A stretch of 64,000 nt of DNA from an uncultured Thiothrix sp. (GCA_902624655.1 CACNYJ010000002.1:69771-133770), one strand, 5' to 3'. Numbered from the stretch's first letter, positions 10,610 through 23,049 are shown. The notes: a model not told the origin generated them from the letters alone. Numbers and translations: made by a program.

Positions 10610-11935
10610 TCACATACAATCAATGATAGCATCGCCAAATCCGCTACATGTAACTAGTGTAGCTCCTGGCATTAATTCTTCAAGTTCTTTTACAATCTCT
10701 TGACTGCTTTCGTGTTTTTTTACAAGTGTCTGCATTCCGACTCTAACTCTCGCTAAATCATATGTTACAGTTTTGTTAGCTATTGCTTGGGCTACGCCAT
10801 TAATAATATTATCAGCAGCTTCTGTCCAACCAATGTATCTCAACATCATTTCAGCAGATAAAATTATTGATCCTGGGTTTACTCTATTTTTTCCAGCATA
10901 CTTTGGAGCAGATCCATGAGTTGCTTCGAAAACCGCAACATGATCTGAAATATTTGCACCAGGAGCTATCCCAATACCGCCAACCTGAGCAGCTAGTGCA
11001 TCTGAAATATAGTCACCGTTAAGATTTAAAGTGGCAATTACATCGTAATCCTCAGGTTTTAAAAGTATTTGCTGTAGAAAATTATCTGCGATCACATCTT
11101 TTATTATGATTTCACTATTACCATTTGGATTATTAATTTTACACCACGGTCCGTCATCAATAAGCTCTCCATTAAATTCCTCTAGCGCAAGTTCGTAACC
11201 CCAATTCCTAAATGCTCCCTCAGTAAACTTCATTATATTTCCTTTGTGAACTAATGAGACAGATCTACGATTATTATCAATTGCATACTGAATAGCTTTT
11301 CTAATTAGTCTTTTGGATCCTTCTTGAGATACTGGTTTGATTCCGATGCCCGAAGAATCTGGAAATCTAATTCCGTCGACACTCATTTCTTTTATTAAAA
11401 AATCTAAAACCTTTTGAACCCCTTCTGATTGAGCCTCCCACTCTATCCCTGCATAAATGTCTTCAGTATTTTCTCTGAAAATAACCATGTCTGTAGAGCT
11501 TGAACTTCTTAATGGTGTTCTTGTTCCTGGGAAATATCTAATTGGTCTTACGCAGGCAAAAAGGTCCATCTCTTGCCTTATGGCTACATTTAAAGATCTT
11601 AAACCTTCTCCAACTGGAGTAGTTAAAGGACCTTTAATTGCAACAACAAATTCTTTAATTGCGTCAAAAGTCTCTTGAGGTAAATAGTTATGCTTACCAT
11701 ATTTTTCAACTGCCTTATCTCCAGCAAAAACTTCCATCCAGTGAATTTGTTTCTCATTACCGTAAGCTTTATTTACTGCATTGTTTACGACATTTTGCAT
11801 TACTGGAGTTATGTCAAGTCCAATTCCATCACCTTGGATAAAAGGAATAATTGGATTATTTGGAACTAAAAGTTTTCCAGCGTCATTGAACTGGATTTGA
11901 GATCCATCTTTTGGTATTTGAACGTGTTCAAACAT
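10610..11935 (-). CDS. icd: NADP-dependent isocitrate dehydrogenase (dimeric E. coli type)
   Basis: 441 aa, nearly colinear with E. coli Icd ([46 protein letters not shown]). Confidence 0.95.
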
Positions 11936-11957
11936 AAATAAGTCCTTTGGTTTTTCT

Positions 11958-13262
11958 TTAAAACTGCTCTTCTTCGGTTGAGCCTGTAAGTGCAGTTACA
12001 GAGGATTCACCCCCTTGAATTACTGTGGTTACATCGTCAAAATAACCAGCTCCAACTTCTTGCTGATGACTTACAAAAGAATAACCTTTATCGGAAGCGG
12101 CAAATTCTGGCTCCTGAACTTTTTCAACATAATGCTTCATGCCATCTCCAGCTGCGTAAGAATGTGCTAAGTCAAACATGTTGTACCACATATTATGAAT
12201 ACCAGCTAAAGTAATAAATTGATATTTGTAACCCATAGCACTCAATTCTTTTTGAAATTTCGCAATAGTGGCGTCGTCAAGATTTTTTTTCCAATTAAAA
12301 GATGGAGAACAGTTATATGCAAGAAGTTGGTCTGGATGTTGTGATCTGACTCCTTCTGCAAACTTTTTAGCAAACTCTAAGTCAGGAGTACCTGTTTCAC
12401 ACCAGATTAAATCCGCGTAAGGTGCGTATGCTAAGCCTCTTGATATAGCTTGATCAATACCATTATTTGTTCTATAAAAGCCTTCGGCTGTTCTTTCGCC
12501 TGTTAAAAAAGGCTTGTCATTTTCATCATAATCAGACGTAATTAAATTTGCTGCCTCTGCATCGGTTCTAGCTAGAAGTAAAGTTGGAACCCCCATAACA
12601 TCAGAGGCTAACCTTGCGGCAATAAGTTTCTGAATAGCTTCTTGAGTTGGAACAAGAACTTTTCCTCCCATATGTCCACATTTTTTAACTGCTGCTAATT
12701 GATCTTCGTAATGTACTCCAGCAGCACCATTAATTATCATATTTTTCATAAGTTCAAATGCATTCAAGACTCCGCCGAAACCAGCTTCAGCATCTGCTAC
12801 GATTGGTGCAAAATAGTCAATGTAATCTTTATCGCCTGGATTTATGTTTTTTGACCATTGAATTTCATCTGCTCTCTTGAAGTTATTATTTATCCTTCTT
12901 ACAACTGTAGGCACTGAATCATAAGCATAAAGAGATTGGTCTGGATACATTGTTTCTGAAGTATTTGCATCTGCTGCAACTTGCCATCCTGATAAATAAA
13001 TAGCTTCAATACCTGCTTTGACTTGCTGCATTGCTTGACCGCCGGTTAAGGCACCTAAGCAATTTACGTATCCTTTTTTTGCGCTGCCGTTTACAAGAGA
13101 CCAGAGTTTTTCAGCTCCCCTTTTTGCAATACTACATTCTGGTACAAATGAGCCTCTAAGCCTTACAACATCATCTGCTGAATAACCCCTTTTTACATTT
13201 GCCCATCTTTGATTTGAATTCCATTCGTTTTCTAATTGTTTTACTTGCTCTTTTCTATCCAT
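11958..13262 (-). CDS. aceA: Isocitrate lyase
   Basis: 434 aa with the ICL signature KKCGHMGGK and an N-terminus like E. coli AceA ([12 protein letters not shown]). Confidence 0.95.
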
Positions 13263-13479: not shown

Positions 13480-13977
13480 ATGGCAAATATACCAAAATTT
13501 AAAACTGCAGACCTATGTGATGACTACAGTGACGATTTAATCATTTTAAATCAACAATTTAATAGTTATGGTAAAAAAGATTCTTTTTTTGGACAAATTA
13601 GTACTGTCAAATGTCTCAATGATAATTCAAAAGTTAGGGAAGCGGTAAACTCAGAAGGAAACAGAAACGTTCTTGTTGTTGACGGAAGTGCTTCTACCGC
13701 TTGTGCTCTTCTTGGTGACATGCTGGCAGAAGCAGCAGTGAATAATAACTGGTCTGGCATAATTGTTAACGGATGTATTAGAGATTGTGACGTTATAGCA
13801 AATATAGATCTAGGCGTTTTTGCTTTGTCTACTATTCCTTTAAAAAGTGTTAAAAAAAATATAGGTGATAGAGATGTTACGGTTAATTTTATGGGAGTCG
13901 ATTTTAATCCTGGAGATTACATATATGCTGATCTTGATGGGATTATTATTAGCAAAAAAGAATTAGATATTAGCTGA
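13480..13977 (+). CDS. rraA: RraA-family protein (regulator of RNase E activity A / MenG-like)
   Basis: 165 aa matching RraA along its length (DLCDDY, VLVVDGS, NGCIRD, VNFMGV). Confidence 0.85.
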   Translation: MANIPKFKTADLCDDYSDDLIILNQQFNSYGKKDSFFGQISTVKCLNDNSKVREAVNSEGNRNVLVVDGSASTACALLGDMLAEAAVNNNWSGIIVNGCIRDCDVIANIDLGVFALSTIPLKSVKKNIGDRDVTVNFMGVDFNPGDYIYADLDGIIISKKELDIS

Positions 13978-14770
13978 ACGAAGGTTTCCTTCTGTGGTAG
14001 TACTTAATATCTCTGAAGCTTGTTTTACCCTCAGCTCCAACACCAAGATACATTTCTTTTACATCAGGCCTCTCGAGTAGTTCTTTCGCTTTACCTTTTA
14101 AAATAACTCTACCGTTTTCAATAATGTATCCATCGTCAGCATACTTCAATGCAACCATTGCGTTTTGTTCAGCAATTAAAAAGCTAACTCCTTCTTTATT
14201 CAAATTTTTAACTATTGCAAAAATCTCTTCAACTAACTGAGGAGCAAGTCCCATGGATGGTTCGTCAAGAAGAATTAGTTTTGGTCGTGACATTAATGCC
14301 CTTCCCATCGCAATCATTTGTTGTTCTCCTCCAGATGTAAACCCTGCTAAGCTTTTTTTTCTAATTCGAATTCTTTCGAAGTGATCGTAAACTCTTTCTA
14401 AATCTTGTTTTGCTTCTTTTGGATTCTCTCTGATGAAAGACCCAGTCATAATATTCTCTTCAACGGTTAAATGTGAAAAGCAATGTCTTCCTTCGAGAAC
14501 CTGTACTACACCATCCTTAACTAGATTATATGCATCAGTTTTTGATATATCATTTTCGTTATACTCAATGGAGCCTTTTGTTACAGCTCCTCTTTCTGCA
14601 TGAAGGAGGTTAGAACAAGCTTTTAGTGTTGTAGTTTTTCCAGAACCGTTGGCGCCTAATAAAGAAACAACTTTACCTTCTTCCACGTCAAGTGTCACAC
14701 CTCTTAATGCTAAAATCACATGGTTGTATACCACTTCAATATTATTTACTTTTAGTAATGATTTAGACAT
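13970..14770 (-). CDS. ABC transporter ATP-binding protein, LivF-like (HAAT family), with a ~30 aa C-terminal extension
   Basis: Walker A LLGANGSGKTTT, the ABC signature SGGEQQ and Walker B LLDEP. Confidence 0.85.
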   Translation of the reverse strand: MSKSLLKVNNIEVVYNHVILALRGVTLDVEEGKVVSLLGANGSGKTTTLKACSNLLHAERGAVTKGSIEYNENDISKTDAYNLVKDGVVQVLEGRHCFSHLTVEENIMTGSFIRENPKEAKQDLERVYDHFERIRIRKKSLAGFTSGGEQQMIAMGRALMSRPKLILLDEPSMGLAPQLVEEIFAIVKNLNKEGVSFLIAEQNAMVALKYADDGYIIENGRVILKGKAKELLERPDVKEMYLGVGAEGKTSFRDIKYYHRRKPSFS

Positions 14771-14799
14771 TTATTTTCACCCCTTTTAATAATATTTTT

Positions 14800-15894
14800 T
14801 TAATGTGGATATGGCCACATTCTTAATTTTTGTTTTGTAGTTGCCCAAAGAGCAGCAAAACCGCCTGGCTCCCTAATTAACAACGCAATAATAAAAATAC
14901 CATAAACCATATTTGATACATTTTCTACAACAGCTGTATTAAATGCACCTTGAAATATAGTGTCACCAATCCAAGTAAACACTATTGGAAACTCATAAAC
15001 AAATATTGCTCCTAGCCAAGATCCAGATATTGAGCCTAATCCGCCAATTATTAGCATGAAAAGAATTGTAAATGAACGATCGATTTCATAAATCATTAAG
15101 TCAACGTTACCTATATAACAGAAAGAATATAATCCTCCCGCAACACCGCAATAAAAACAGCTAACAAAAAAAGCTAGTAATTTTGTTCTAGGAACACTTA
15201 TACCCATAACGCTTGCAGCAATATCCCTATCCCTTACTGACATAAAGTTTCTTCCTGTATTACTTCTTAGTAGATTTTTAGCAAAATAGGTTAAAGCCAA
15301 ACATACAGTCAATGCTAAAACATATCTTGCAGGATACCCTTGCATATCTATACCTAAGAGGTTTCCTAAGCCCCAGTAGTCATACATTTTTGGTGGAATA
15401 GCTACAACACCAGATGACTCATAATTCAAAAACCAAGCATATGAATTAAAAAACCACCAAACAAAATATTGTGCAGCTAACGTTGAGACTAAAAGATAAA
15501 ACCCTTTAATTCTTATCGCGGGTAAGCCAAAAATCACACCGACTAGTCCGGCAAAAATTCCAGAAAATAATAGCGCTACTGGTAAAGACATAAAATTTTC
15601 AGGTATTCTTAACATTAAATTATAGGTGCTAAATGCACCAACACACATAAATCCAGCAGTTCCTAGAGAGAGCTGTCCAGTTAAACCAGTTAGAATATTT
15701 AAACCAACTGTTGCGAGACCAACTGCAAGAATTGGTACAACATGCGCGCTTAAAGTATATTCAGAAGTTGTGGGAACATATAAATATAAGACTAGAAGCC
15801 CAAGGATAACGATAATTTTGTCAAATTTAAGTGGAAAGATTTCTCTATCTTTAAAATAGTTCGTTACAAAATTTCCAGTTTCTCTGTAAATCAT
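14800..15894 (-). CDS. ABC transporter permease, LivM-like
   Basis: 364 aa polytopic membrane protein of the branched-chain amino acid permease family. Adjacent to the LivH-like permease. Confidence 0.8.
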   Translation of the reverse strand: MIYRETGNFVTNYFKDREIFPLKFDKIIVILGLLVLYLYVPTTSEYTLSAHVVPILAVGLATVGLNILTGLTGQLSLGTAGFMCVGAFSTYNLMLRIPENFMSLPVALLFSGIFAGLVGVIFGLPAIRIKGFYLLVSTLAAQYFVWWFFNSYAWFLNYESSGVVAIPPKMYDYWGLGNLLGIDMQGYPARYVLALTVCLALTYFAKNLLRSNTGRNFMSVRDRDIAASVMGISVPRTKLLAFFVSCFYCGVAGGLYSFCYIGNVDLMIYEIDRSFTILFMLIIGGLGSISGSWLGAIFVYEFPIVFTWIGDTIFQGAFNTAVVENVSNMVYGIFIIALLIREPGGFAALWATTKQKLRMWPYPH

Positions 15895-15900
15895 TTTTAA

Positions 15901-16830
15901 TTACACCCTTTCAATTAATTTTTCTCCAAACATTCCCTGTGGTCTAAATATTAAAAATATTAAAGCCATAAAGTAAGCAAACCAAAGCTCTATACCTTGT
16001 CCGCCAAAAACGTCTGCCAAATAAATTTCACCTAGCTTTTCACCAACACCAATAACAAGTCCGCCAACAATCGCTCCAGGTATAGAAGTTAATCCACCAA
16101 TTAATATCACAGGTAAAGCCTTCATAACTGCCTCTATAAGAGTAAAGGATACACTGACTCTCTCAGCCCAAAGTAATCCTGCAACAAGAGCAATTACTCC
16201 TGTAACGGCCCAGACAACTGCCCAAACTGTTTGCAAAGGAATTCCAACTGCCATGGCAGCCATATGATCATCAGATACTGCTCTTAAAGATAAGCCAGTT
16301 TTTGTTTTTTGAAAGAAAAAGGCAAGAACAACAATTAGAGATCCAGCAACTAATGATGCAAAAATATCAAATTTTGGAATTAAAATATCCAGCCATGGTA
16401 TATGATCAGACATAAATATAGGCGCAGGGTCTAATAAACCAATATCTAAAAACTTACTCATTTGTAAACCATGAACATCTGAATCCCATACAAACTGAGA
16501 AAAGCCTTCTTGAAAAGTTGCTAAACCTACTGTAGCCATAAATAAAGCCAATAAATCTTGGTTAGCTAAAGGTCTTATAACATATCTTTCTGTAGCAATA
16601 CCAAAAATAACCATGATTCCAGCTGCTATAAATAAAGAAGTCCAAAAGTCGATACCGTTTTCAGTCATTTTAACAAAGGTTAAAGAAGCAAATAACAGCA
16701 TGGTACCTTGCGCAAAGTTGAATATACCTGAAGATTTATAGATTAAAACGAAGCCGATAGCGACCAAGGAATACATCACTCCTGACATTAAACCACCAAC
16801 TAGAACTTCTATTAAATATACCCAATCCAT
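15901..16830 (-). CDS. ABC transporter permease, LivH-like
   Basis: 309 aa polytopic membrane protein of the branched-chain amino acid permease family. Confidence 0.8.
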   Translation of the reverse strand: MDWVYLIEVLVGGLMSGVMYSLVAIGFVLIYKSSGIFNFAQGTMLLFASLTFVKMTENGIDFWTSLFIAAGIMVIFGIATERYVIRPLANQDLLALFMATVGLATFQEGFSQFVWDSDVHGLQMSKFLDIGLLDPAPIFMSDHIPWLDILIPKFDIFASLVAGSLIVVLAFFFQKTKTGLSLRAVSDDHMAAMAVGIPLQTVWAVVWAVTGVIALVAGLLWAERVSVSFTLIEAVMKALPVILIGGLTSIPGAIVGGLVIGVGEKLGEIYLADVFGGQGIELWFAYFMALIFLIFRPQGMFGEKLIERV

Positions 16831-16842
16831 AATTCCCCCAGT

Positions 16843-17610
16843 TTAATGACTAACTCCAAGATACGCATCTATAACATCCTGATTCGACATTACTTCGCTT
16901 GGTGTACCATCACCTATTTTTTTTCCATAATCTAATACTACCACATGATCTGAAATATCCATTACAACTCCCATATCATGTTCTATCATGACTGTTGTAA
17001 TACCCTGCTCTTTATTAATTTCTAAAATAAAACAGGACATATCAGCTTTTTCCTCTAAATTCATTCCAGCCATCGGCTCGTCTAATAAAAGAATTTTTGG
17101 TTCTGCAACAAGCGCTCTTCCTAACTCAACTCTTTTTTGCAATCCATATGGAAGTTTAGATACCGGAGTTTTTCTGATAGATTCGATTTGAAGAAACTTT
17201 ATAACTTTTTCGACAGCGAGCCTATTAACTTTTTCTTCTGTACGCGCTCTACCGATATTTAATCCTTGTTCAAGCCAGCTTGATTTCATAAATAAATTTC
17301 GCCCTGTCATTATATTTTCTAAAACTGTCATACCTTGGAATAAAGCAATATTTTGGAATGTTCTTGCCATACCAGCTATCGCTGCGTCTCTTGGGTTGAT
17401 TGATCTTCTCTCAACTCCATCGTAAGTAACTGTTCCAATTTGCGGAAGGTAAACTCCATTTATTACGTTAAGCATAGAACTTTTTCCAGCTCCATTTGGA
17501 CCGATTACTGCGCAAATTTCGCCTTCTTTAACATTAAAACTTATATCAGTTATGGCTTTTACACCACCAAATGTTAATGTTACGTTTTCTACTTTTAATA
17601 TGTCTGACAT
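16843..17610 (-). CDS. ABC transporter ATP-binding protein, LivG-like
   Basis: Walker A VIGPNGAGKSS, Walker B LLLDEPMAGMN and the overall LivG layout. Confidence 0.85.
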   Translation of the reverse strand: MSDILKVENVTLTFGGVKAITDISFNVKEGEICAVIGPNGAGKSSMLNVINGVYLPQIGTVTYDGVERRSINPRDAAIAGMARTFQNIALFQGMTVLENIMTGRNLFMKSSWLEQGLNIGRARTEEKVNRLAVEKVIKFLQIESIRKTPVSKLPYGLQKRVELGRALVAEPKILLLDEPMAGMNLEEKADMSCFILEINKEQGITTVMIEHDMGVVMDISDHVVVLDYGKKIGDGTPSEVMSNQDVIDAYLGVSH

Positions 17611-17624
17611 TTTTGTCCTTATAA

Positions 17625-19436
17625 TTAAATATCGTTTACTTTTAATTCGTAAGATAGCTGATCTATATCATTAACTTTTATACTGCTCTCATTATTTTCA
17701 ATTGCAGAAAAAACATCGCTTAAGTTCTTTGAAATATTTTTTCTCATTACTTCCATGGTTTTCGAAACTTCGCCAGCATTCATAATAAGTGTTCTGTGTA
17801 ATATAACAAACTTTTTAACTTTTAATTCCGCATCTAAGGTTTCATTAACACACTTTATATGATCCATTATTAAGTTACGCACTTCGTCTTTACCTGCAAG
17901 CTCAGCGTATCCGGTGTATCTTATATTCTTCCTATCAGCCCAAGAGTTTACAGAATTTGGGTCAATAACAATAATTGCGGAGTTTGAGTCTTGATTATTC
18001 CCAATGACGACTGTTGACTTTATAAATGGGCTGCACGAAATTAAATTTTCAACGCTCTCTGGTGAATATTTCTTACCTGATTTCATTGTAACTATATCTT
18101 CTGATCTTCCATTTATAATTAAGTTACCTGACTCATCAATGCTTCCAACATATCCAGAGTTTATCCAACCATCCTCAGAGTTTGTTCCTCCGTCAATCTC
18201 TTCGCCAAGACAATCTGTTTTAAAATAAACTTCTGAATTATCGCTAATCTTTACTTCTGCTCCAGACATTGGTGCTCCAACATTTTCAGAAGAAACAGAG
18301 TGATCAGGTTGAACCGAAATACATCCACACGAAATAGCTTGGCCAAAGGAATGTTGTATCTCAACTCCTATTGCATGGAAAAAATTAAAATTAACTTTTG
18401 ACAAAACTCCATCGCTAACGAAAGCATGTTTAATTTTTGTAAGTCCAAAAACATTTTTTGCAGGTGCAAAAGTCGTAAGCATAATCCAAGCCTTCCAAAT
18501 AGTATCAAAAAGATTTTTATTTCCTGAAACCTCTTTATCATATATTTGCATTAGCTTTGTATAGTGCCACATGTATCTCTGGTAATTTGATTCGGATGCG
18601 GACTCTATTCGATAGCTAATTGAAGAAATAATATGTTTAAAAACAAAAGATGGTGCATATAAAATAGTAGGGCCAATTTCTTGCAAATCTTTTTCAATAG
18701 TTTGATTGCTTTCAGGTAAATTGAAAGACATGCCGCTCACTAAAGAAGTGATATATGTAAATAATAAATTTGTAGAAATAGATAATGGAAGATAAGAAAC
18801 AATTGAATCTTTATTTGATAATTTATTTAAATCGCAAATTTTAGAGCTATTTCGTATTATTGAGTCATGTGAAACTTTATAAATTTTATTCTCGTGTTCG
18901 TCATATAAATAAAATGCTATATCGTTATCAGCAACAGATTGCATTTGGGCATCAATGTTATTATTTTCAGATTTTGATACCATATCATCATAAGAATTTA
19001 ATTTAGAGTTTTCATAGTTGCTCATTCCTCTTCCATCAAGATAGACGACCGTATTTATATTGCATTCTGACTCAACCTTTAAAAAAGTATCAACTTGTTG
19101 CTGATCTTCAGCAATCAAAACTTCTGCTTTGGAGCTATTTAAAATAGTTGTTAATTCGCTTTCGTTGGATTCAGGATGTATCAGAGCAACAATACCACCA
19201 AGAGTTTGAACTGCAGCAATTGAAAATATTAATTTTGGTACATTATTTCCATAAATGGCGACGACAGTTCCTTTAGAAACGGATAAATTTTTATAAGCAT
19301 CAACAAGAGAGGCGACTTCATTATAATAATCTTCCCAACTGTAGGAGCTCCATATTCCTAGCTGCTTATATCTTAATGCAACAGCATCTGGAAAATTCTG
19401 TTTATTTGATAGTACTAACCCAGGGATAGTTGCCAT
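17625..19436 (-). CDS. AMP-dependent synthetase/ligase-fold protein (acyl-CoA synthetase-like) with a degenerate P-loop; first gene of the Liv-type ABC cluster
   Basis: 603 aa colinear with the ANL superfamily (A8-like GWINSGYVGSIDESGNLIINGRSEDIV; C-terminal KSGKK). The canonical TSGTTGxPKG is replaced by DEHENKIYKV. Confidence 0.6.
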   Translation of the reverse strand: MATIPGLVLSNKQNFPDAVALRYKQLGIWSSYSWEDYYNEVASLVDAYKNLSVSKGTVVAIYGNNVPKLIFSIAAVQTLGGIVALIHPESNESELTTILNSSKAEVLIAEDQQQVDTFLKVESECNINTVVYLDGRGMSNYENSKLNSYDDMVSKSENNNIDAQMQSVADNDIAFYLYDEHENKIYKVSHDSIIRNSSKICDLNKLSNKDSIVSYLPLSISTNLLFTYITSLVSGMSFNLPESNQTIEKDLQEIGPTILYAPSFVFKHIISSISYRIESASESNYQRYMWHYTKLMQIYDKEVSGNKNLFDTIWKAWIMLTTFAPAKNVFGLTKIKHAFVSDGVLSKVNFNFFHAIGVEIQHSFGQAISCGCISVQPDHSVSSENVGAPMSGAEVKISDNSEVYFKTDCLGEEIDGGTNSEDGWINSGYVGSIDESGNLIINGRSEDIVTMKSGKKYSPESVENLISCSPFIKSTVVIGNNQDSNSAIIVIDPNSVNSWADRKNIRYTGYAELAGKDEVRNLIMDHIKCVNETLDAELKVKKFVILHRTLIMNAGEVSKTMEVMRKNISKNLSDVFSAIENNESSIKVNDIDQLSYELKVNDI

Positions 19437-19779
19437 TTAACTTATTTCTCTCAATTTTTATTATAATATTGATTTGAAATGATTTTTCTCATTTCTTATT
19501 ATTATTATTTGATTACTTTAATTATTATTAAATATATTTAATCAAGAATTGTAAATTACACCAATGTTTGCTTTCTGACAAGATATATATATCTATTAAT
19601 TAATATATATAAAAGCTTTATTAGTATATTATTATGTATTTATGTGTTTGAAAAACACAATATGTAGTGTTAAAATACCTATCCAAGTACTATAGAATTA
19701 GAGAGAATTCGTTATTACTTGTAGAGCTCACAAAATACACAGCGTTCCTAATATATATATCATTCTATATATATTACCA

Positions 19780-20511
19780 ATGGTCTGCACTTTTGGTTTC
19801 ACTGGGAATAATTCTTTTAAAGCGTTTGAGGTTCCTCTATCTTCAAGTTTTTATCAATGCTCTGTTAAAAAAGACCTGTATTTATCTTTATATGAAAACA
19901 AAGCACTTAATAAAGTTGAGAGAAATATTTTTATCAAGAAAATGGGTGTAAGGCTTCCAAAGTATATTGGCTTTTTCAAGAAACACACGAGAAACTCTAT
20001 ATTTTCGTGGCAACTAATTGCAGCACTGTCGTACCAAGAGTCACATTGGAATCACAAAGCAGTTTCAAAAACCAAGGTTAAAGGCCTAATGATGTTAACA
20101 AAAAATACCGCAAACTATATTGGTGTTAAAAATAGACTTGATCCAAATGAAAGTGTATATGGTGGAGTAAAATATTTAGAAAATATTTTCAAGAGACTGC
20201 CAGCTTCGATTGTAAGCTCTGATAGAATCTGGATGACTTTGGCTGCATATAACGTTGGTTTAGGACATTTGGAAGATGCAAGAATAATTACCCAAAGATC
20301 TGGTGGAAACCCAAACTATTGGTCCGATGTTAAAAAATATTTACCGCTTCTGTCAAAAAAGAAATATTATAAAAATACCAAATATGGGTATGCAAGAGGT
20401 TACGAGCCGGTAATTTATGTAGAAAGAATAAAGGCCTACTTAGATATTATATATGAAAATAATAATTCTTACTTAGCTTCTCTTTCTCTTAAAAAAATTT
20501 TTAATAATTAA
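19780..20511 (+). CDS. mltF: MltF-like lytic murein transglycosylase, C-terminal SLT domain only; the N-terminal binding-protein-like domain and signal peptide are absent (possible gene remnant)
   Basis: LIAALSYQESHWNHKAVSKTKVKGLMMLTKNTANYIGV and WMTLAAYNVGLGHL match the MltF catalytic domain. The frame is closed by a stop at 19699..19701. The upstream 343 bp is AT-rich and non-coding. Confidence 0.6.
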   Translation: MVCTFGFTGNNSFKAFEVPLSSSFYQCSVKKDLYLSLYENKALNKVERNIFIKKMGVRLPKYIGFFKKHTRNSIFSWQLIAALSYQESHWNHKAVSKTKVKGLMMLTKNTANYIGVKNRLDPNESVYGGVKYLENIFKRLPASIVSSDRIWMTLAAYNVGLGHLEDARIITQRSGGNPNYWSDVKKYLPLLSKKKYYKNTKYGYARGYEPVIYVERIKAYLDIIYENNNSYLASLSLKKIFNN

Positions 20512-21009: not shown

Positions 21010-21558
21010 ATGGGCGATAGAATTGTAATGAGAGTGGCTGAATCACTTGTTGCAGGTGGTCCTCCGGGAACAGCTGCGGAACCTGAAGTTGTAATTGGAG
21101 AGCTAGATGGACCTGTAGGCACAGCTTTTGCAACTCTTCTTGGTGATCAAGTAAAGGGGCACTCAAGAGTCTTGGCAATTATGAACACAGATATTATGGT
21201 CAAGCCAGCAACAATAATGGTTAGTAAAGTAACAGTAAAAAATGAAAGATATACAAATATACTTATGGGCACTGTTCAAGGTGCAATCGCAAATGGTGTG
21301 CTTGATGCCGTAAGAAATGGAGATATTCCTAAAGAAAAAGCAAATGACTTAGGAATTATTGTATCAGTATGGCTTAACCCATCAGTAATAAAAGATGATA
21401 ATTTAGACCATAAGATTCTTTTTGATATACATAGAAAGGCAACTTCACAAGCAATAGCTAAAGCTATGAAAAATGAGCCAGATATTGATTGGTTACTCGA
21501 TAATCAAGAGAATATTATTCATAAATACTATCAAATGGGTCTTGACGGAAAAATATAA
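21010..21558 (+). CDS. fae: Formaldehyde-activating enzyme (Fae) family protein
   Basis: 182 aa, colinear with Fae (VAESLVAGG..., VIGELDGPVGTAF, GHSRVLAIMNTDIMVKPATIMVSKVTV, DAVRNGDIP). An AGAGG SD lies upstream. Confidence 0.65.
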   Translation: MGDRIVMRVAESLVAGGPPGTAAEPEVVIGELDGPVGTAFATLLGDQVKGHSRVLAIMNTDIMVKPATIMVSKVTVKNERYTNILMGTVQGAIANGVLDAVRNGDIPKEKANDLGIIVSVWLNPSVIKDDNLDHKILFDIHRKATSQAIAKAMKNEPDIDWLLDNQENIIHKYYQMGLDGKI

Positions 21559-21567
21559 GATAAAATT

Positions 21568-23049
21568 TTAATTTATAAAAATGTTAGGAACTGAATAAAT
21601 TTCATAATTGAAAAAATATTTTAATAGGAAATAAGATACTATCGTTACTAAAAAAATTGAAATTATATTTAATATAATTCCTGTTTTGACCATATTTTTA
21701 ATTGATATCTTGCCGCTACCAAATATTACAGCATTTGGTGGCGTTGCAACTGGGAGCATAAATGCACAGCTCGCTGCAATAGTACATGGAATTGCAAAGA
21801 AAAGTGGATTTACATTTATACCAATAGCAAAAGCTATGAGTATAGGCGCAAATGTTGCAATTGTTGCTGTATTTGAATTTAATTCTGTTAAAAAAATAAT
21901 TAATGCCACAAAGATAATAATAAGAATAAAAATATTATATCCATCAAAGAATAAAGAAAAACTACCTATCCAATTAGCAAGGCCTGTAATATTAAATGCT
22001 TTGGAAAGTGCAATACCACCTCCTACCAGTAATAAAACGCCCCATGGAATCTTGTTTGCTGTATCCCAGCTACATGCTCTTTGATTTTTTTTTATTGGAA
22101 TAATAAATAAAAGTAATGCTCCAAATAATCCTATTGAGGTATCGTTTATATTTAAGTCAAAACTACTATTTATAAATCTTCTAAACATCCATAATGAGGC
22201 AGTTAGAATAAAAACCATAGCAACAATTTTTTCAGCATTGGAAGATTTTCCAATATCCTCTTTAAGCTTTACTAATGTTATTTGCAAAGCGTCTGATTTA
22301 TTATTTGGCACCTTAAAAATTATATTTGTTAAGAAAAACCATACAACTGGAAGTAAAATTATAGTTATCGGGAATCCAACTTTAAACCAATCAAAAAAGC
22401 TTATATCATAGTTATAATTTTCGCTTAAAATACTGGCCAACATTACGTTTGTTGGTGTACCTATCAAGGTTGCTACTCCACCTATAGATGCTGAATATGC
22501 AATAGCTAATAATAAGGGAACTGTAAGACTGCTCTCTTCAGATTTTATTTGGTTAGCAAATATAGCTATAACAGAAGTAGCTATTGGCAACATCATTATT
22601 GTAGATGCGGTATTGCTAACCCACATACTAATTGAAGCTGTTGCAATCATAAAGCCAGCAATAATTTTACTTGGGCTCGTTCCAGAGATAGATAAAATAT
22701 TAATTGCTATCCTTTTATGAAGGCCGCAAGACTCCATGGCGGAAGCAATTATAAATCCCCCTAAAAATAATAGAACTAGGGGGTGTGCATATGAATTTGA
22801 AATTTCTTGAATTTCAAAAATATTAAAAAATGGAAAAAGTATTATTGGAATTATTCCTGTAACATAAATTGGAACAGCTTCAGTTACCCACCAAATTGTC
22901 ATTAAAATTGCTACTCCAGCAGTTATCCAGCCAGAATAACTTAAATTTTCTGGCGGCTCAGAAATGATGAACAATAAAAAGAAAAGTATTCCTATGGAGA
23001 GGCCGTATAAAGAAAACGTATCTCTATCAATCATATTATTCCCATTCAA
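21568..23049 (-). CDS. DASS/SLC13-family Na+-coupled anion (dicarboxylate/sulfate) symporter (probable start at the internal MIDRD, ~23034)
   Basis: 493 aa polytopic protein carrying the paired SNTAST and TPPN hairpin motifs of the DASS family. Confidence 0.65.
   Translation of the reverse strand: MNGNNMIDRDTFSLYGLSIGILFFLLFIISEPPENLSYSGWITAGVAILMTIWWVTEAVPIYVTGIIPIILFPFFNIFEIQEISNSYAHPLVLLFLGGFIIASAMESCGLHKRIAINILSISGTSPSKIIAGFMIATASISMWVSNTASTIMMLPIATSVIAIFANQIKSEESSLTVPLLLAIAYSASIGGVATLIGTPTNVMLASILSENYNYDISFFDWFKVGFPITIILLPVVWFFLTNIIFKVPNNKSDALQITLVKLKEDIGKSSNAEKIVAMVFILTASLWMFRRFINSSFDLNINDTSIGLFGALLLFIIPIKKNQRACSWDTANKIPWGVLLLVGGGIALSKAFNITGLANWIGSFSLFFDGYNIFILIIIFVALIIFLTELNSNTATIATFAPILIAFAIGINVNPLFFAIPCTIAASCAFMLPVATPPNAVIFGSGKISIKNMVKTGIILNIISIFLVTIVSYFLLKYFFNYEIYSVPNIFIN

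What the first reader, a model, noticed from the sequence alone, without database searches (positions are those of the whole stretch)
13970..19436. Liv-type ABC importer operon led by an AMP-ligase-fold gene with a destroyed P-loop, and no substrate-binding-protein gene
Gene order on the minus strand is ANL/acyl-CoA-synthetase-like (603 aa), then LivG-like, LivH-like, LivM-like and LivF-like. The ANL protein keeps the overall fold (A8-like GW..SGYVG..DESGNLIINGRSED; C-terminal lysine region). The phosphate-binding motif that is normally TSGTTGxPKG reads YLYDEHENKIYKVSHD. The A5 (YGQTE) and A7 (TGD) motifs are also substituted, to FGQAI and SGY, so canonical adenylation chemistry is doubtful. 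No periplasmic binding protein of the Peripla_BP_6 type is encoded anywhere in the window; the flanking genes are rraA and an mltF fragment. ANL-domain genes in HAAT-family ABC operons are annotated in several proteobacteria without a known function. A degenerate, possibly regulatory or substrate-trapping pseudo-ligase coupled to an importer is not a characterised arrangement.
Basis: partly seen in the sequence, partly recalled or inferred. Interest (0 to 1): 0.55.

Follow-up and report, generated by a model that had tools for sequence, protein, structure and literature searches.

The report
Dead acyl-CoA ligase kept beside transporter
An abundant small-genome ocean bacterium keeps, under strong selection, an acyl-CoA-ligase-like protein that has lost every residue needed for its chemistry, at the head of a nutrient-importer operon; the importer's "missing" binding protein is simply encoded elsewhere in the genome.

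Summary
The five minus-strand genes are real and at the stated coordinates: an ANL-fold protein, then LivG-, LivH-, LivM- and LivF-like genes.

Its P-loop is replaced by a shortened acidic hairpin. The A5 Thr/Glu and the A7 Asp are gone.

All 17 sampled members of the lineage (49-100% identity) share this state. The fold is still intact (AlphaFold pLDDT 93) and the gene is under purifying selection (dN/dS 0.07-0.18). It is therefore a maintained pseudoenzyme, not a decaying gene.

The "no binding protein" part does not hold. Related bacteria carry a Peripla_BP_6 gene between livM and livF in the same chromosomal slot, and this lineage deleted it cleanly. A 75-78% identical copy sits alone at a second conserved site (proS-SBP-yfiH). 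It lies on the same 1.12-Mb contig as the operon of an 81%-identical relative.

Best reading: an ordinary binding-protein-dependent importer for an unknown small solute, with the dead ligase kept as a non-catalytic partner. The organism belongs to, or is close to, GTDB order GCA-002705445.

The parts
17625..19436 (-). ANL-fold pseudo-ligase, 603 aa, with both domains intact and all adenylation residues lost
   Evidence: Pfam AMP-binding 112.8 bits and AMP-binding_C_3. AF2 pLDDT 93, pTM 0.91. Foldseek matches ANL enzymes at TM 0.7-0.83. Motif table. dN/dS 0.07-0.18.
18864..18911 (-). Remnant of the A3 phosphate-binding loop: YLYDEHENKIYKVSHD, 3 residues shorter than normal, acidic, modelled as a tight beta-hairpin
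   Evidence: Net charge is -2 to -5 in all 17 clade members. Strand 173-179, turn, strand 184-189 in the model. The family consensus aligns to the A3 motif of solved A-domains.
18333..18347 (-). A5 remnant FGQAI (family YGxTE), with the Thr and the Glu lost
   Evidence: Pairwise HMMER alignment to solved Cfl 7a9j, SFGQAI versus SYGQTE..
18150..18158 (-). A7 remnant SGY (family TGD), with the ribose-binding Asp replaced by Tyr
   Evidence: Alignments to 7a9j and 6k4c..
17742..17765 (-). A10 remnant SKTMEVMR (family T-R-x-R-K-x-R-R), with the catalytic Lys replaced by Glu562
   Evidence: A canonical ANL paralog's PKTSVGK lysine aligns to the same column. Not covered by the PDB alignments, so this is the least firmly anchored motif.
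16843..17610 (-). LivG-like ABC ATPase, 255 aa, starting 14 nt after the ANL stop codon with an AAGGA ribosome-binding site
   Evidence: ABC_tran + BCA_ABC_TP_C. Walker A, signature, Walker B and H-loop intact across the clade. Junction sequence. dN/dS 0.00-0.04, apart from 0.18 for the near-identical, noisy pair L002-L020.
15901..16830 (-). LivH-like permease, 309 aa
   Evidence: BPD_transp_2. The identical protein is seen on 405 public contigs. dN/dS 0.00-0.03.
14800..15894 (-). LivM-like permease, 364 aa
   Evidence: BPD_transp_2. dN/dS 0.01-0.045, apart from 0.12 for the near-identical, noisy pair L002-L020.
14771..14799 (.). 29-nt livM-livF spacer: the place where orthologous operons carry a ~1.35-kb Peripla_BP_6 SBP gene, here cleanly deleted
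   Evidence: The livM-livF distance is 1506-1696 nt with an SBP gene in the syntenic outgroup operons, and at most 29 nt (overlapping in L021) in all query-clade loci. No SBP remnant by tblastn.
13970..14770 (-). LivF-like ABC ATPase, 266 aa
   Evidence: ABC_tran. Walker A, Walker B and the AEQN H-loop region are intact. The signature FTSGGEQQ is seen in the translation.
19437..19779 (.). 343-bp AT-rich region upstream of the ANL gene; presumed promoter region of the operon
   Evidence: Gene spacing. Several sigma-70-like matches on the minus strand at 19463-19652, though such matches are not enriched much above shuffles. No Rfam family.

Best explanation
This is a single transcription unit encoding a HAAT-type (Liv-like) ABC importer. 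It has two permeases (LivH/LivM-like) and two intact ATPases (LivG/LivF-like).

The periplasmic binding protein is supplied in trans by a stand-alone, highly conserved Peripla_BP_6 gene at a second chromosomal site (proS-SBP-yfiH-rluD-bamD).

The first gene encodes an ANL-fold protein descended from the acyl-CoA-ligase-like partner found in front of livG in this transporter family across several phyla. In this lineage it can no longer bind ATP or form an acyl-adenylate. It is nevertheless kept as a folded, selected protein.

The most likely role is as a non-catalytic accessory (scaffold, regulatory or ligand-holding) partner of the transporter's cytoplasmic side, probably through LivG.

Shown: gene content, loss of all adenylation residues, an intact predicted fold, purifying selection, deletion of the in-operon SBP gene, and presence of the orphan SBP in the same genome.

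Inferred: that the orphan SBP serves this transporter, that the ANL protein acts on or with the transporter, and the substrate. The substrate is unknown. It is probably a small carboxylate or fatty-acid-like solute rather than branched-chain amino acids.
For: 1. Domain content and intact ATPase motifs.

2. Spacers of 6-29 nt, with ribosome-binding sites seen before livG, livH and livF, indicate one operon.

3. All of A3, A5, A7 and A10 are lost in the window and in all 16 other clade loci down to 49% identity. Nearly all syntenic outgroups keep them. A3, A5, A7 and A8 are anchored to solved enzymes.

4. The AF2 model has pLDDT 93 and pTM 0.91, with a complete two-domain ANL fold. It lies closest to adenylate-forming conformations.

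5. ANL dN/dS is 0.07-0.18. That is comparable to tadA, rraA and the SLT gene nearby. The ABC genes are at roughly 0.00-0.045. One near-identical pair (L002-L020, dS 0.02-0.06) gives higher, noisy values for several genes, including 0.31 for ANL.

6. Lengths of 598-604 aa (610 by my start-codon call in L013) with no disruptions, in a 1.1-Mb streamlined genome.

7. 69 positions are conserved with catalytic relatives. A further 58 are conserved only within the dead clade, and the replacement loop is acidic in every member.

8. ANL-livG adjacency holds in all gammaproteobacterial loci, and also in Anaerolineae, Ardenticatenaceae, Cohaesibacteraceae and Ca. Cybelea loci. It holds even where the rest of the operon is inverted, as in L005. 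No locus shows the transporter without an ANL-like gene.

9. Degenerate short ANL-like partners recur in distant Liv operons.

10. SBP: orthologous operons in the same slot (tadA-[mltF]-ANL-livGHM-SBP-livF-rraA-aceA-icd) carry the SBP gene. The clade's orphan SBP is 75-78% identical to those. It sits at proS-SBP-yfiH. It lies on the same 1,123,675-bp record as the operon of an 81% relative, and on the 1,064,527-bp L016 chromosome.
Against: - No direct evidence of physical contact between the ANL protein and LivG or LivF. No complex prediction could be run.
- No expression data were found for either locus.
- The pairing of the orphan SBP with this transporter is inferred from orthology only. 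I could not inventory the other BPD_transp_2 systems in the genome.
- The A10 assignment rests on family and paralog alignment rather than on a solved structure.
- The ANL gene evolves 5-10 times faster than the ABC genes. A looser or different role is therefore possible.
- The window's own contig was not shown to carry the SBP. Only close relatives were, including a contig holding a LivH identical to the window's.
Confidence: 0.55

Rival explanations
1. The ANL-fold protein is still an enzyme but with different chemistry. It might, for example, bind acyl-CoA or CoA, or act as a thioesterase or transferase in the old acyl/CoA tunnel, or use a pre-formed adenylate. The operon would then still couple import to a chemical step.
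For: The fold is fully retained and A8 Gly-Arg is kept. There are 58 clade-specific conserved positions. Purifying selection is present.
Against: Every residue known to contact ATP phosphates, Mg2+, ribose and the adenylation lysine is replaced. The former nucleotide site is occupied by an acidic hairpin and aromatic or hydrophobic side chains. No new catalytic-looking motif (Cys/His/Ser triad or similar) was noticed among the seven switch sites.
Confidence: 0.13
2. The dead ANL protein has been taken over for a job unrelated to the transporter. Its position at the head of the operon would then be only historical.
For: It evolves faster than the ABC genes. It shows many new clade-specific constraints after a long stem branch.
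Against: The gene order and the 14-nt junction to livG are invariant across the clade. ANL-livG adjacency is conserved across phyla. In a 1.1-Mb genome with frequent rearrangement of neighbours, the linkage has never been broken.
Confidence: 0.15
3. The importer truly works without a binding protein, or has become an exporter or extractor, with the pseudo-ligase acting as a cytoplasmic substrate trap. This is the spirit of the first reader's reading.
For: No SBP gene in the operon or the window. The SBP gene has been lost from the operon at least three times independently.
Against: In two of the three operon-SBP-loss lineages examined, an orthologous SBP is retained at the proS-yfiH site of the same chromosome. 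That SBP is even more conserved than the transporter's partner genes, at 90-100% identity within the clade.
Confidence: 0.05
4. The ANL gene is a decaying relic, in effect a pseudogene in progress. It would be kept only because its translation or transcript is needed to express livG.
For: Catalytic motifs are lost. It is the fastest-evolving gene of the operon.
Against: dN/dS is far below 1 in eight of nine pairs (0.07-0.18) and 0.31 in one near-identical pair. No frameshifts or stops in 17 lineages spanning 49-100% identity, nor in more than 120 metagenomic variants. AF2 confidence is 93.
Confidence: 0.03

Closest known systems
[quoted passage not shown]
   Same: Same subunit families and stoichiometry: two BPD_transp_2 permeases, a LivG-type ATPase with the BCA_ABC_TP_C tail, a LivF-type ATPase and a Peripla_BP_6-type SBP. 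A binding-protein gene transcribed apart from the permease genes is also known for livJ (my own knowledge).
   Different: All four subunits score far below the NCBIfam LivG/H/M/F equivalog cut-offs. An ANL gene heads the operon. The SBP's closest solved relative is the uncharacterised 4RU0, not LivJ/K. The locus is linked to aceA-icd rather than to amino-acid genes. The substrate is therefore probably different.
ANL-livGHM-SBP-livF operons of other marine and sponge-associated Gammaproteobacteria (orthologous slot; e.g. L007, L024-L028, L039-L045)
   Same: Same chromosomal slot and gene order, and orthologous proteins.
   Different: Most of those keep the A5/A7/A10 residues and a recognisable P-loop, though the P-loop is often relaxed. 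L043 and L092 have A7 THD and A8 GQ. Many keep the SBP gene inside the operon. Their function is uncharacterised too.
Vectorial acylation systems (FadL-FadD; FATP/SLC27, whose transport function depends on an ANL domain)
   Same: An ANL-family protein functionally tied to uptake of a carboxylic acid. This is the likely ancestral logic of the operon (inference; background in PMC9329746 and my own knowledge).
   Different: Those need the ligase chemistry to trap the substrate. Here the chemistry is abolished and the transporter is an ATP-driven ABC system.
FadD11 / COG1022-type long-chain fatty acyl-CoA ligases
   Same: Best-scoring named ligase family, matched end to end over residues 16-575.
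   Different: 156.5 bits against a cut-off of 950, and none of the catalytic residues.

Membership tests
ANL superfamily (acyl-CoA synthetase / NRPS adenylation domain / luciferase) | Two-domain ANL fold: a large N-terminal domain plus a small C-terminal domain | tested here: met
   Pfam AMP-binding 112.8 bits (cut-off 29.9) and AMP-binding_C_3. AF2 pLDDT 93. Foldseek probability 1.00, TM 0.7-0.83 to 6k4d and 4wv3.
ANL superfamily (acyl-CoA synthetase / NRPS adenylation domain / luciferase) | A3 phosphate-binding loop (T/S)(S/G)G(T/S)(T/S)GxPKG | tested here: not met
   Reads DEHEN-KIYK with a 3-residue deletion. The family consensus is anchored to solved A-domains.
ANL superfamily (acyl-CoA synthetase / NRPS adenylation domain / luciferase) | A5 YGxTE (Thr and Glu) and A7 (S/T)GD (Asp) | tested here: not met
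   FGQAI and SGY. Direct alignments to solved Cfl and AncLamp..
ANL superfamily (acyl-CoA synthetase / NRPS adenylation domain / luciferase) | A10 catalytic lysine of the C-terminal domain | tested here: not met
   Glu562 lies at the column of the family's T-R-x-R-K and of a canonical paralog's PKTSVGK. Not anchored to a solved structure.
ANL superfamily (acyl-CoA synthetase / NRPS adenylation domain / luciferase) | ATP-dependent adenylate formation | not testable with these tools
   Needs an ATP-PPi exchange or acyl-CoA formation assay.
FadD11-type fatty acid--CoA ligase (NCBIfam NF038343) | Score at or above the curated cut-off | tested here: not met
   156.5 bits against a cut-off of 950.
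HAAT-family ABC importer (TC 3.A.1.4) | Two BPD_transp_2 permease subunits | tested here: met
   PF02653 at 91.5 and 93.6 bits.
HAAT-family ABC importer (TC 3.A.1.4) | Two ABC ATPases with intact Walker A, signature, Walker B and H-loop; LivG type with the BCA_ABC_TP_C tail | tested here: met
   The LivF signature FTSGGEQQ was read from the translation.
HAAT-family ABC importer (TC 3.A.1.4) | Cognate Peripla_BP_6 periplasmic binding protein | tested here: inconclusive
   Absent from the operon and the window. An ortholog of operon-encoded SBPs is present elsewhere on the same chromosome in clade members. That it docks to this transporter is inferred, not shown.
LIV-I branched-chain amino acid system (NCBIfam LivG/LivF/LivH/LivM equivalogs) | Scores at or above the curated equivalog cut-offs | tested here: not met
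   LivG 226.7 against 362, LivF 216.3 against 441, LivH 71 against 379, LivM 71.8 against 366.

The most novel reading that the evidence does not exclude
ANL-like proteins may be integral, essentially non-catalytic subunits (a cytoplasmic gate, sensor or assembly factor docking on LivG) of a whole subclass of HAAT ABC importers found in several phyla. On this reading ligase chemistry is dispensable and has been lost repeatedly. It is lost completely in the GCA-002705445-like lineage, partly in its nearest outgroup (A8 Arg and A10 Lys), and by truncation in alphaproteobacterial and soil lineages. The dead-ligase lineage would then be a natural knock-out showing that the partner's conserved function is not CoA ligation.
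Probability: 0.25. Interest if true: 0.7.

Novelty: new variant of a known kind. Interest (0 to 1): 0.45.

Why it matters
ANL genes sit in front of livG-type genes in Liv-like ABC operons of several bacterial phyla, and nobody has said what they do there.

A lineage that has erased the ligase chemistry, yet kept the protein under selection for a very long time, argues for a role beyond CoA activation. Its genome is only 1.1 Mb, and useless genes tend to disappear from genomes that small. It also offers a clean comparative system: a dead form, a half-dead form (L044) and intact forms (L024-type orthologs) in the same chromosomal slot.

The organism is abundant in the ocean. The identical LivH is seen on 405 contigs and the orphan SBP cluster has 1,108 members. 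It belongs to, or is close to, an order reported as a methylotroph and as the strongest alkB expresser among marine alkane consumers. The unknown substrate of this transporter may therefore matter for marine carbon turnover.

There is also a practical lesson. Absence of an SBP gene from an ABC operon, or even from 64 kb around it, is not evidence for an SBP-independent transporter.

Tried and rejected
- **Decaying pseudogene:** rejected by dN/dS and intact reading frames.
- **P-loop merely misread or misaligned:** rejected. Three independent alignments agree, and the family consensus maps to solved A-domains.
- **SBP remnant in the livM-livF spacer or elsewhere in the window:** none found by tblastn with 20 SBPs.
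- **Riboswitch or other known RNA upstream of the operon:** none in Rfam.
- **Genome-collection scan with a 27-sequence alignment:** failed because it was too divergent. It worked with 7 sequences.
- **Direct contig look-up of a locus-derived SBP:** Solved through the search for homologous proteins and cluster members.
- **AFDB Foldseek library:** unavailable.
- **ANL+LivG co-folding:** not attempted.
- **Literature:** seven term searches found no description of a dead ANL partner or of the function of ANL genes in HAAT operons. PMC12542648 was read and is irrelevant. The metaproteome supplements of PMC8371827 gave no hit for this operon or its SBP.
- **Substrate inference from the SBP:** the closest solved structure, 4RU0, is itself uncharacterised, and no NCBIfam model matches.
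- **140-aa N-terminal extension of LivG in L005:** matches nothing I hold.


Full report
**1. What is in the sequence**

The minus strand between 13970 and 19436 carries five tightly packed ORFs at exactly the coordinates given:

| Coordinates | Length | Pfam assignment |
|---|---|---|
| 17625-19436 | 603 aa | AMP-binding (112.8 bits) + AMP-binding_C_3 |
| 16843-17610 | 255 aa | ABC_tran + BCA_ABC_TP_C (LivG type) |
| 15901-16830 | 309 aa | BPD_transp_2 |
| 14800-15894 | 364 aa | BPD_transp_2 |
| 13970-14770 | 266 aa | ABC_tran (LivF type) |

The spacers are 14, 12, 6 and 29 nt. An AAGGA ribosome-binding site lies between the ANL stop codon and the livG start codon. A 343-bp AT-rich region precedes the ANL gene, so this is one operon.

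The flanks are an RraA-like gene and a 243-aa protein that has only the SLT domain of MltF.

None of the four transporter subunits reaches the NCBIfam cut-offs for the true LivG/H/M/F equivalogs. The ANL protein scores 156 bits against a cut-off of 950 for FadD11, its best named family.

**2. The ligase is dead, more thoroughly than reported**

I collected relatives from 73% down to 25% identity and aligned them three ways. The family profile aligns its A3, A5, A7 and A8 motifs to those of solved adenylation domains. The window protein itself aligns pairwise to solved Cfl and luciferase across A5-A8.

| Motif | Family consensus | Window protein |
|---|---|---|
| A3 (P-loop) | YTSG(T/S)(T/S)GxPKGVxLSH | YLYDEHEN---KIYKVSH (3 residues shorter, no Gly/Ser/Thr) |
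| A5 | YGxTE | FGQAI |
| A7 | TGD | SGY |
| A10 | T-R-x-R-K-x-R-R | S-K-T-M-E-V-M-R (lysine column is Glu562) |
| A8 | Arg | Gly-Arg kept |

- A canonical ANL paralog in one locus puts its PKTSVGK lysine in the same A10 column.
- Only the A8 Gly-Arg survives.
- A10 is the one assignment not anchored to a solved structure.

**3. It is nevertheless a folded, selected protein**

- **Fold.** AlphaFold2 with an 86-sequence alignment gives pLDDT 93 and pTM 0.91. The former P-loop is modelled as a tight beta-hairpin. Foldseek finds ANL enzymes with probability 1.00. The best fits are adenylate-forming conformations at rmsd 3.6-4.6 Å, against more than 10 Å for thioester-forming ones.
- **Distribution.** A scan of species-representative genomes, together with contig look-ups, gave 16 further loci of the same lineage at 49-93% identity. 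All 17 loci, counting the window, have the dead motifs. Called lengths are 598-604 aa, plus 610 aa by my start-codon choice in L013. None has a frameshift in the ANL gene.
- **Selection.** Nei-Gojobori dN/dS for the ANL gene is 0.07-0.18 in eight of nine pairs. That is the same range as tadA, rraA and the SLT gene next door. The four ABC genes are at roughly 0.00-0.045. One near-identical pair (L002-L020, dS 0.02-0.06) gives higher, noisy values for several genes, including 0.31 for ANL.
- **Conserved features.** Within the protein, 69 positions are conserved with catalytic relatives. These include the subfamily hallmarks DQQQVD, PES-(E/Q)T, EIGPT-LYAP and WADR. A further 58 positions are conserved only in the dead clade, concentrated in the helical insertion at about residues 259-330.
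- **Acidic loop.** The loop that replaced the P-loop has a net charge of -2 to -5 in every member. The replacement is therefore itself a conserved feature.

**4. Where the binding protein went**

*The ancestral operon had one.* Contexts of more distant relatives show the same chromosomal slot across many Gammaproteobacteria: (xseA-guaB-guaA)-tadA-[mltF]-ANL-livG-livH-livM-SBP-livF-rraA-aceA-icd. A Peripla_BP_6 gene of about 447 aa lies between livM and livF.

*This lineage deleted it.* In the query clade livM and livF are at most 29 nt apart, and they overlap in L021. No SBP remnant exists.

*Other lineages did the same.* A neighbour-joining tree of the ANL proteins indicates that the operon copy was also lost independently in at least two outgroup lineages whose ligase motifs are intact.

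*An orphan copy exists.* The operon SBPs are extremely conserved, so I scanned metagenome contigs with their alignment. Twenty-two contigs with 27-34% GC carry an orphan SBP of this family. The sixteen full-length copies (449-450 aa) are 90-100% identical to each other and 75-78% identical to operon-encoded SBPs of outgroups.

*It sits at a conserved second site.* The gene stands alone in the neighbourhood bamC-dapA-prx-lysR-proS-SBP-yfiH-rluD-bamD-nadE-coaE.

*It is in the same genomes as the operon.*
- Exact-sequence look-ups place it on twelve sets of contigs longer than 1 Mb.
- One is ERZ28548055 contig_19550 (1,123,675 bp), at about 1,067.7-1,069.1 kb. The same record carries the dead-ANL operon of an 81% relative at about 171-177 kb.
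- That is roughly 0.9 Mb apart along the contig, or about 0.23 Mb if the contig is a closed circle.
- It is also on the 1,064,527-bp chromosome of L016.
- It is also on a 1,147,879-bp contig. That length equals the longest contig carrying a LivH identical to the window's.

*The second site is older than the clade.*
- It holds the SBP in the 2,045,000-bp chromosome of L023, an outgroup with an SBP-less operon.
- It holds it in many contigs of 40-48% GC.
- One 2.65-Mb contig has both copies, L065 in the operon and L082 at the proS site.

This lineage simply kept only the second-site copy. The 'SBP-less importer' is thus an artefact of looking at 64 kb.

**5. Order of events**

The nearest outgroup (L003/L044, 35-36% identity) keeps A3, A5 and A7. 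It has already lost the A8 arginine (DR to DN) and the A10 lysine (K to S), and L044 lacks the operon SBP.

Several outgroups that keep A5 Glu and A10 Lys have relaxed P-loops (L007, L039, L041, L043, L054, L092). L043 and L092 additionally read THD at A7.

Distant Liv operons from Acetobacteraceae, an alphaproteobacterium and two high-GC contigs carry short ANL-like partners with no P-loop and no A5-A8. ORF calling there is mine, and one of them is cut by a contig end.

Erosion of the ligase chemistry therefore seems to be a recurring tendency of this transporter-associated ANL family. The window's lineage is the complete case.

**6. How it most likely works**

*Shown:* an intact ABC core under very strong constraint, a cognate-type SBP in the same genome, and a folded, selected ANL protein without adenylation residues.

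*Inferred:* the system is a normal SBP-dependent importer whose SBP is expressed from its own locus. Separate expression is common for SBPs, which are needed in large excess. The ANL protein has a non-catalytic role tied to the transporter. The grounds for this are:
- the never-broken ANL-livG adjacency across phyla, even where the rest of the operon is inverted (L005);
- the absence of any sampled locus with the transporter but no ANL-like gene;
- the retention of subfamily-specific motifs.

A speculative detail: the conserved acidic hairpin, together with aromatic or hydrophobic replacements of the ribose- and Mg-binding residues, may fill the old nucleotide site. That could hold the protein in one conformation.

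The substrate is unknown. The scores against LIV-I models, the uncharacterised closest SBP structure 4RU0 and the conserved linkage to aceA-icd point to a small carboxylate or fatty-acid-like solute rather than branched-chain amino acids.

**7. Organism**

One contig carrying the orphan SBP belongs to assembly GCA_002705445.1. That assembly names a basal gammaproteobacterial GTDB order.
- MAGs of the order are 1.12-1.13 Mb and are described as dissimilatory methylotrophs (PMC8371827). This fits the Fae gene at 21010-21558.
- The order is reported as the strongest alkB expresser among marine alkane consumers (PMC13488336).

The assignment of the window's own genome to that order is an inference from shared identical or near-identical proteins.

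**8. Comparison with what is known, and novelty**

The transporter works like a HAAT/LIV-type importer and meets the subunit criteria. It is not an ortholog of LIV-I.

The ANL protein is a structural member of the ANL superfamily but fails four of its catalytic hallmarks.

Seven literature searches found no description of a catalytically dead ANL partner in an ABC operon, nor of what ANL genes do in HAAT operons. The library does not cover most subscription journals.

I rate this a new variant of a known kind. The SBP half of the finding is ordinary. The maintained pseudo-ligase is real and moderately surprising.

Interest 0.45.

Noticed in passing
window 19780-20511 (+): The MltF homolog is reduced to its SLT domain: 243 aa here and roughly 210-290 aa by my ORF calls across the clade. 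Outgroups in the same slot have 470-500-aa proteins, and in L003 these carry the N-terminal SBP_bac_3 module. This looks like domain loss during genome streamlining.
   Followed up: partly
window 21010-21558 (+) and 21568-23049 (-): A formaldehyde-activating enzyme (Fae) gene lies next to a DASS-family Na+/sulfate-carboxylate symporter gene. This fits the reported dissimilatory methylotrophy of order GCA-002705445.
   Followed up: partly
window 10610-13262 (-): Isocitrate lyase and isocitrate dehydrogenase genes lie directly beyond rraA. The linkage ANL-liv operon / rraA / aceA / icd is conserved across many Gammaproteobacteria. It may hint at the substrate class.
   Followed up: partly
window 13970-13977: The 3' ends of rraA (+) and the LivF-like gene (-) overlap by 8 bp in convergent orientation.
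   Followed up: no
L126:6430-7722 versus L130:3527-5251: The prolyl-tRNA-synthetase-like gene upstream of the orphan SBP is 430-433 aa without the tRNA_edit domain in the query clade. It is 574-577 aa with that domain in the outgroup.
   Followed up: no
L058, L061, L068: These metagenome contigs join operon genes to proS/yfiH-site genes exactly at the SBP gene (proS-SBP-livF, livM-SBP-yfiH, livM-SBP-clpB). They may be assembly chimeras across two near-identical SBP copies, which would imply concerted evolution of the two copies. Alternatively they are real rearrangements.
   Followed up: no
L065, L082, L101 (all on WLWD01000004.1, 2.65 Mb): One genome carries three SBPs of this family: one in the operon, one at the proS site, and a third 477-aa form that is 58% identical to the clade's orphan SBP. 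A separate group of 473-494-aa orphans (L094, L096-L099, L102) exists at 35-38% GC.
   Followed up: no
L001 (LivH split into 149 + 164 aa) and L015 (LivM split into 243 + 99 aa): These are apparent frameshifts in transporter genes in two long-read, 'pilon'-polished assemblies. They are probably sequencing errors, given the extreme conservation elsewhere, but this was not checked.
   Followed up: no
L005:12029-13207 and L006: The LivG-type ATPase has a 140-aa N-terminal extension with no detectable similarity to anything I held. In these loci ANL-livG is divergent from livF-SBP-livM-livH.
   Followed up: partly
L007, L039, L041, L043, L054, L092 (ANL genes): Orthologs that keep the A5 Glu and the A10 Lys nevertheless have non-canonical P-loops, for example LSSGISSGEMKAAP, FTSGVEEHPKP and LTSGSTRRERP. 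L043 and L092 also read THD at A7 and GQ at A8. Whether these are active ligases is an open question.
   Followed up: partly
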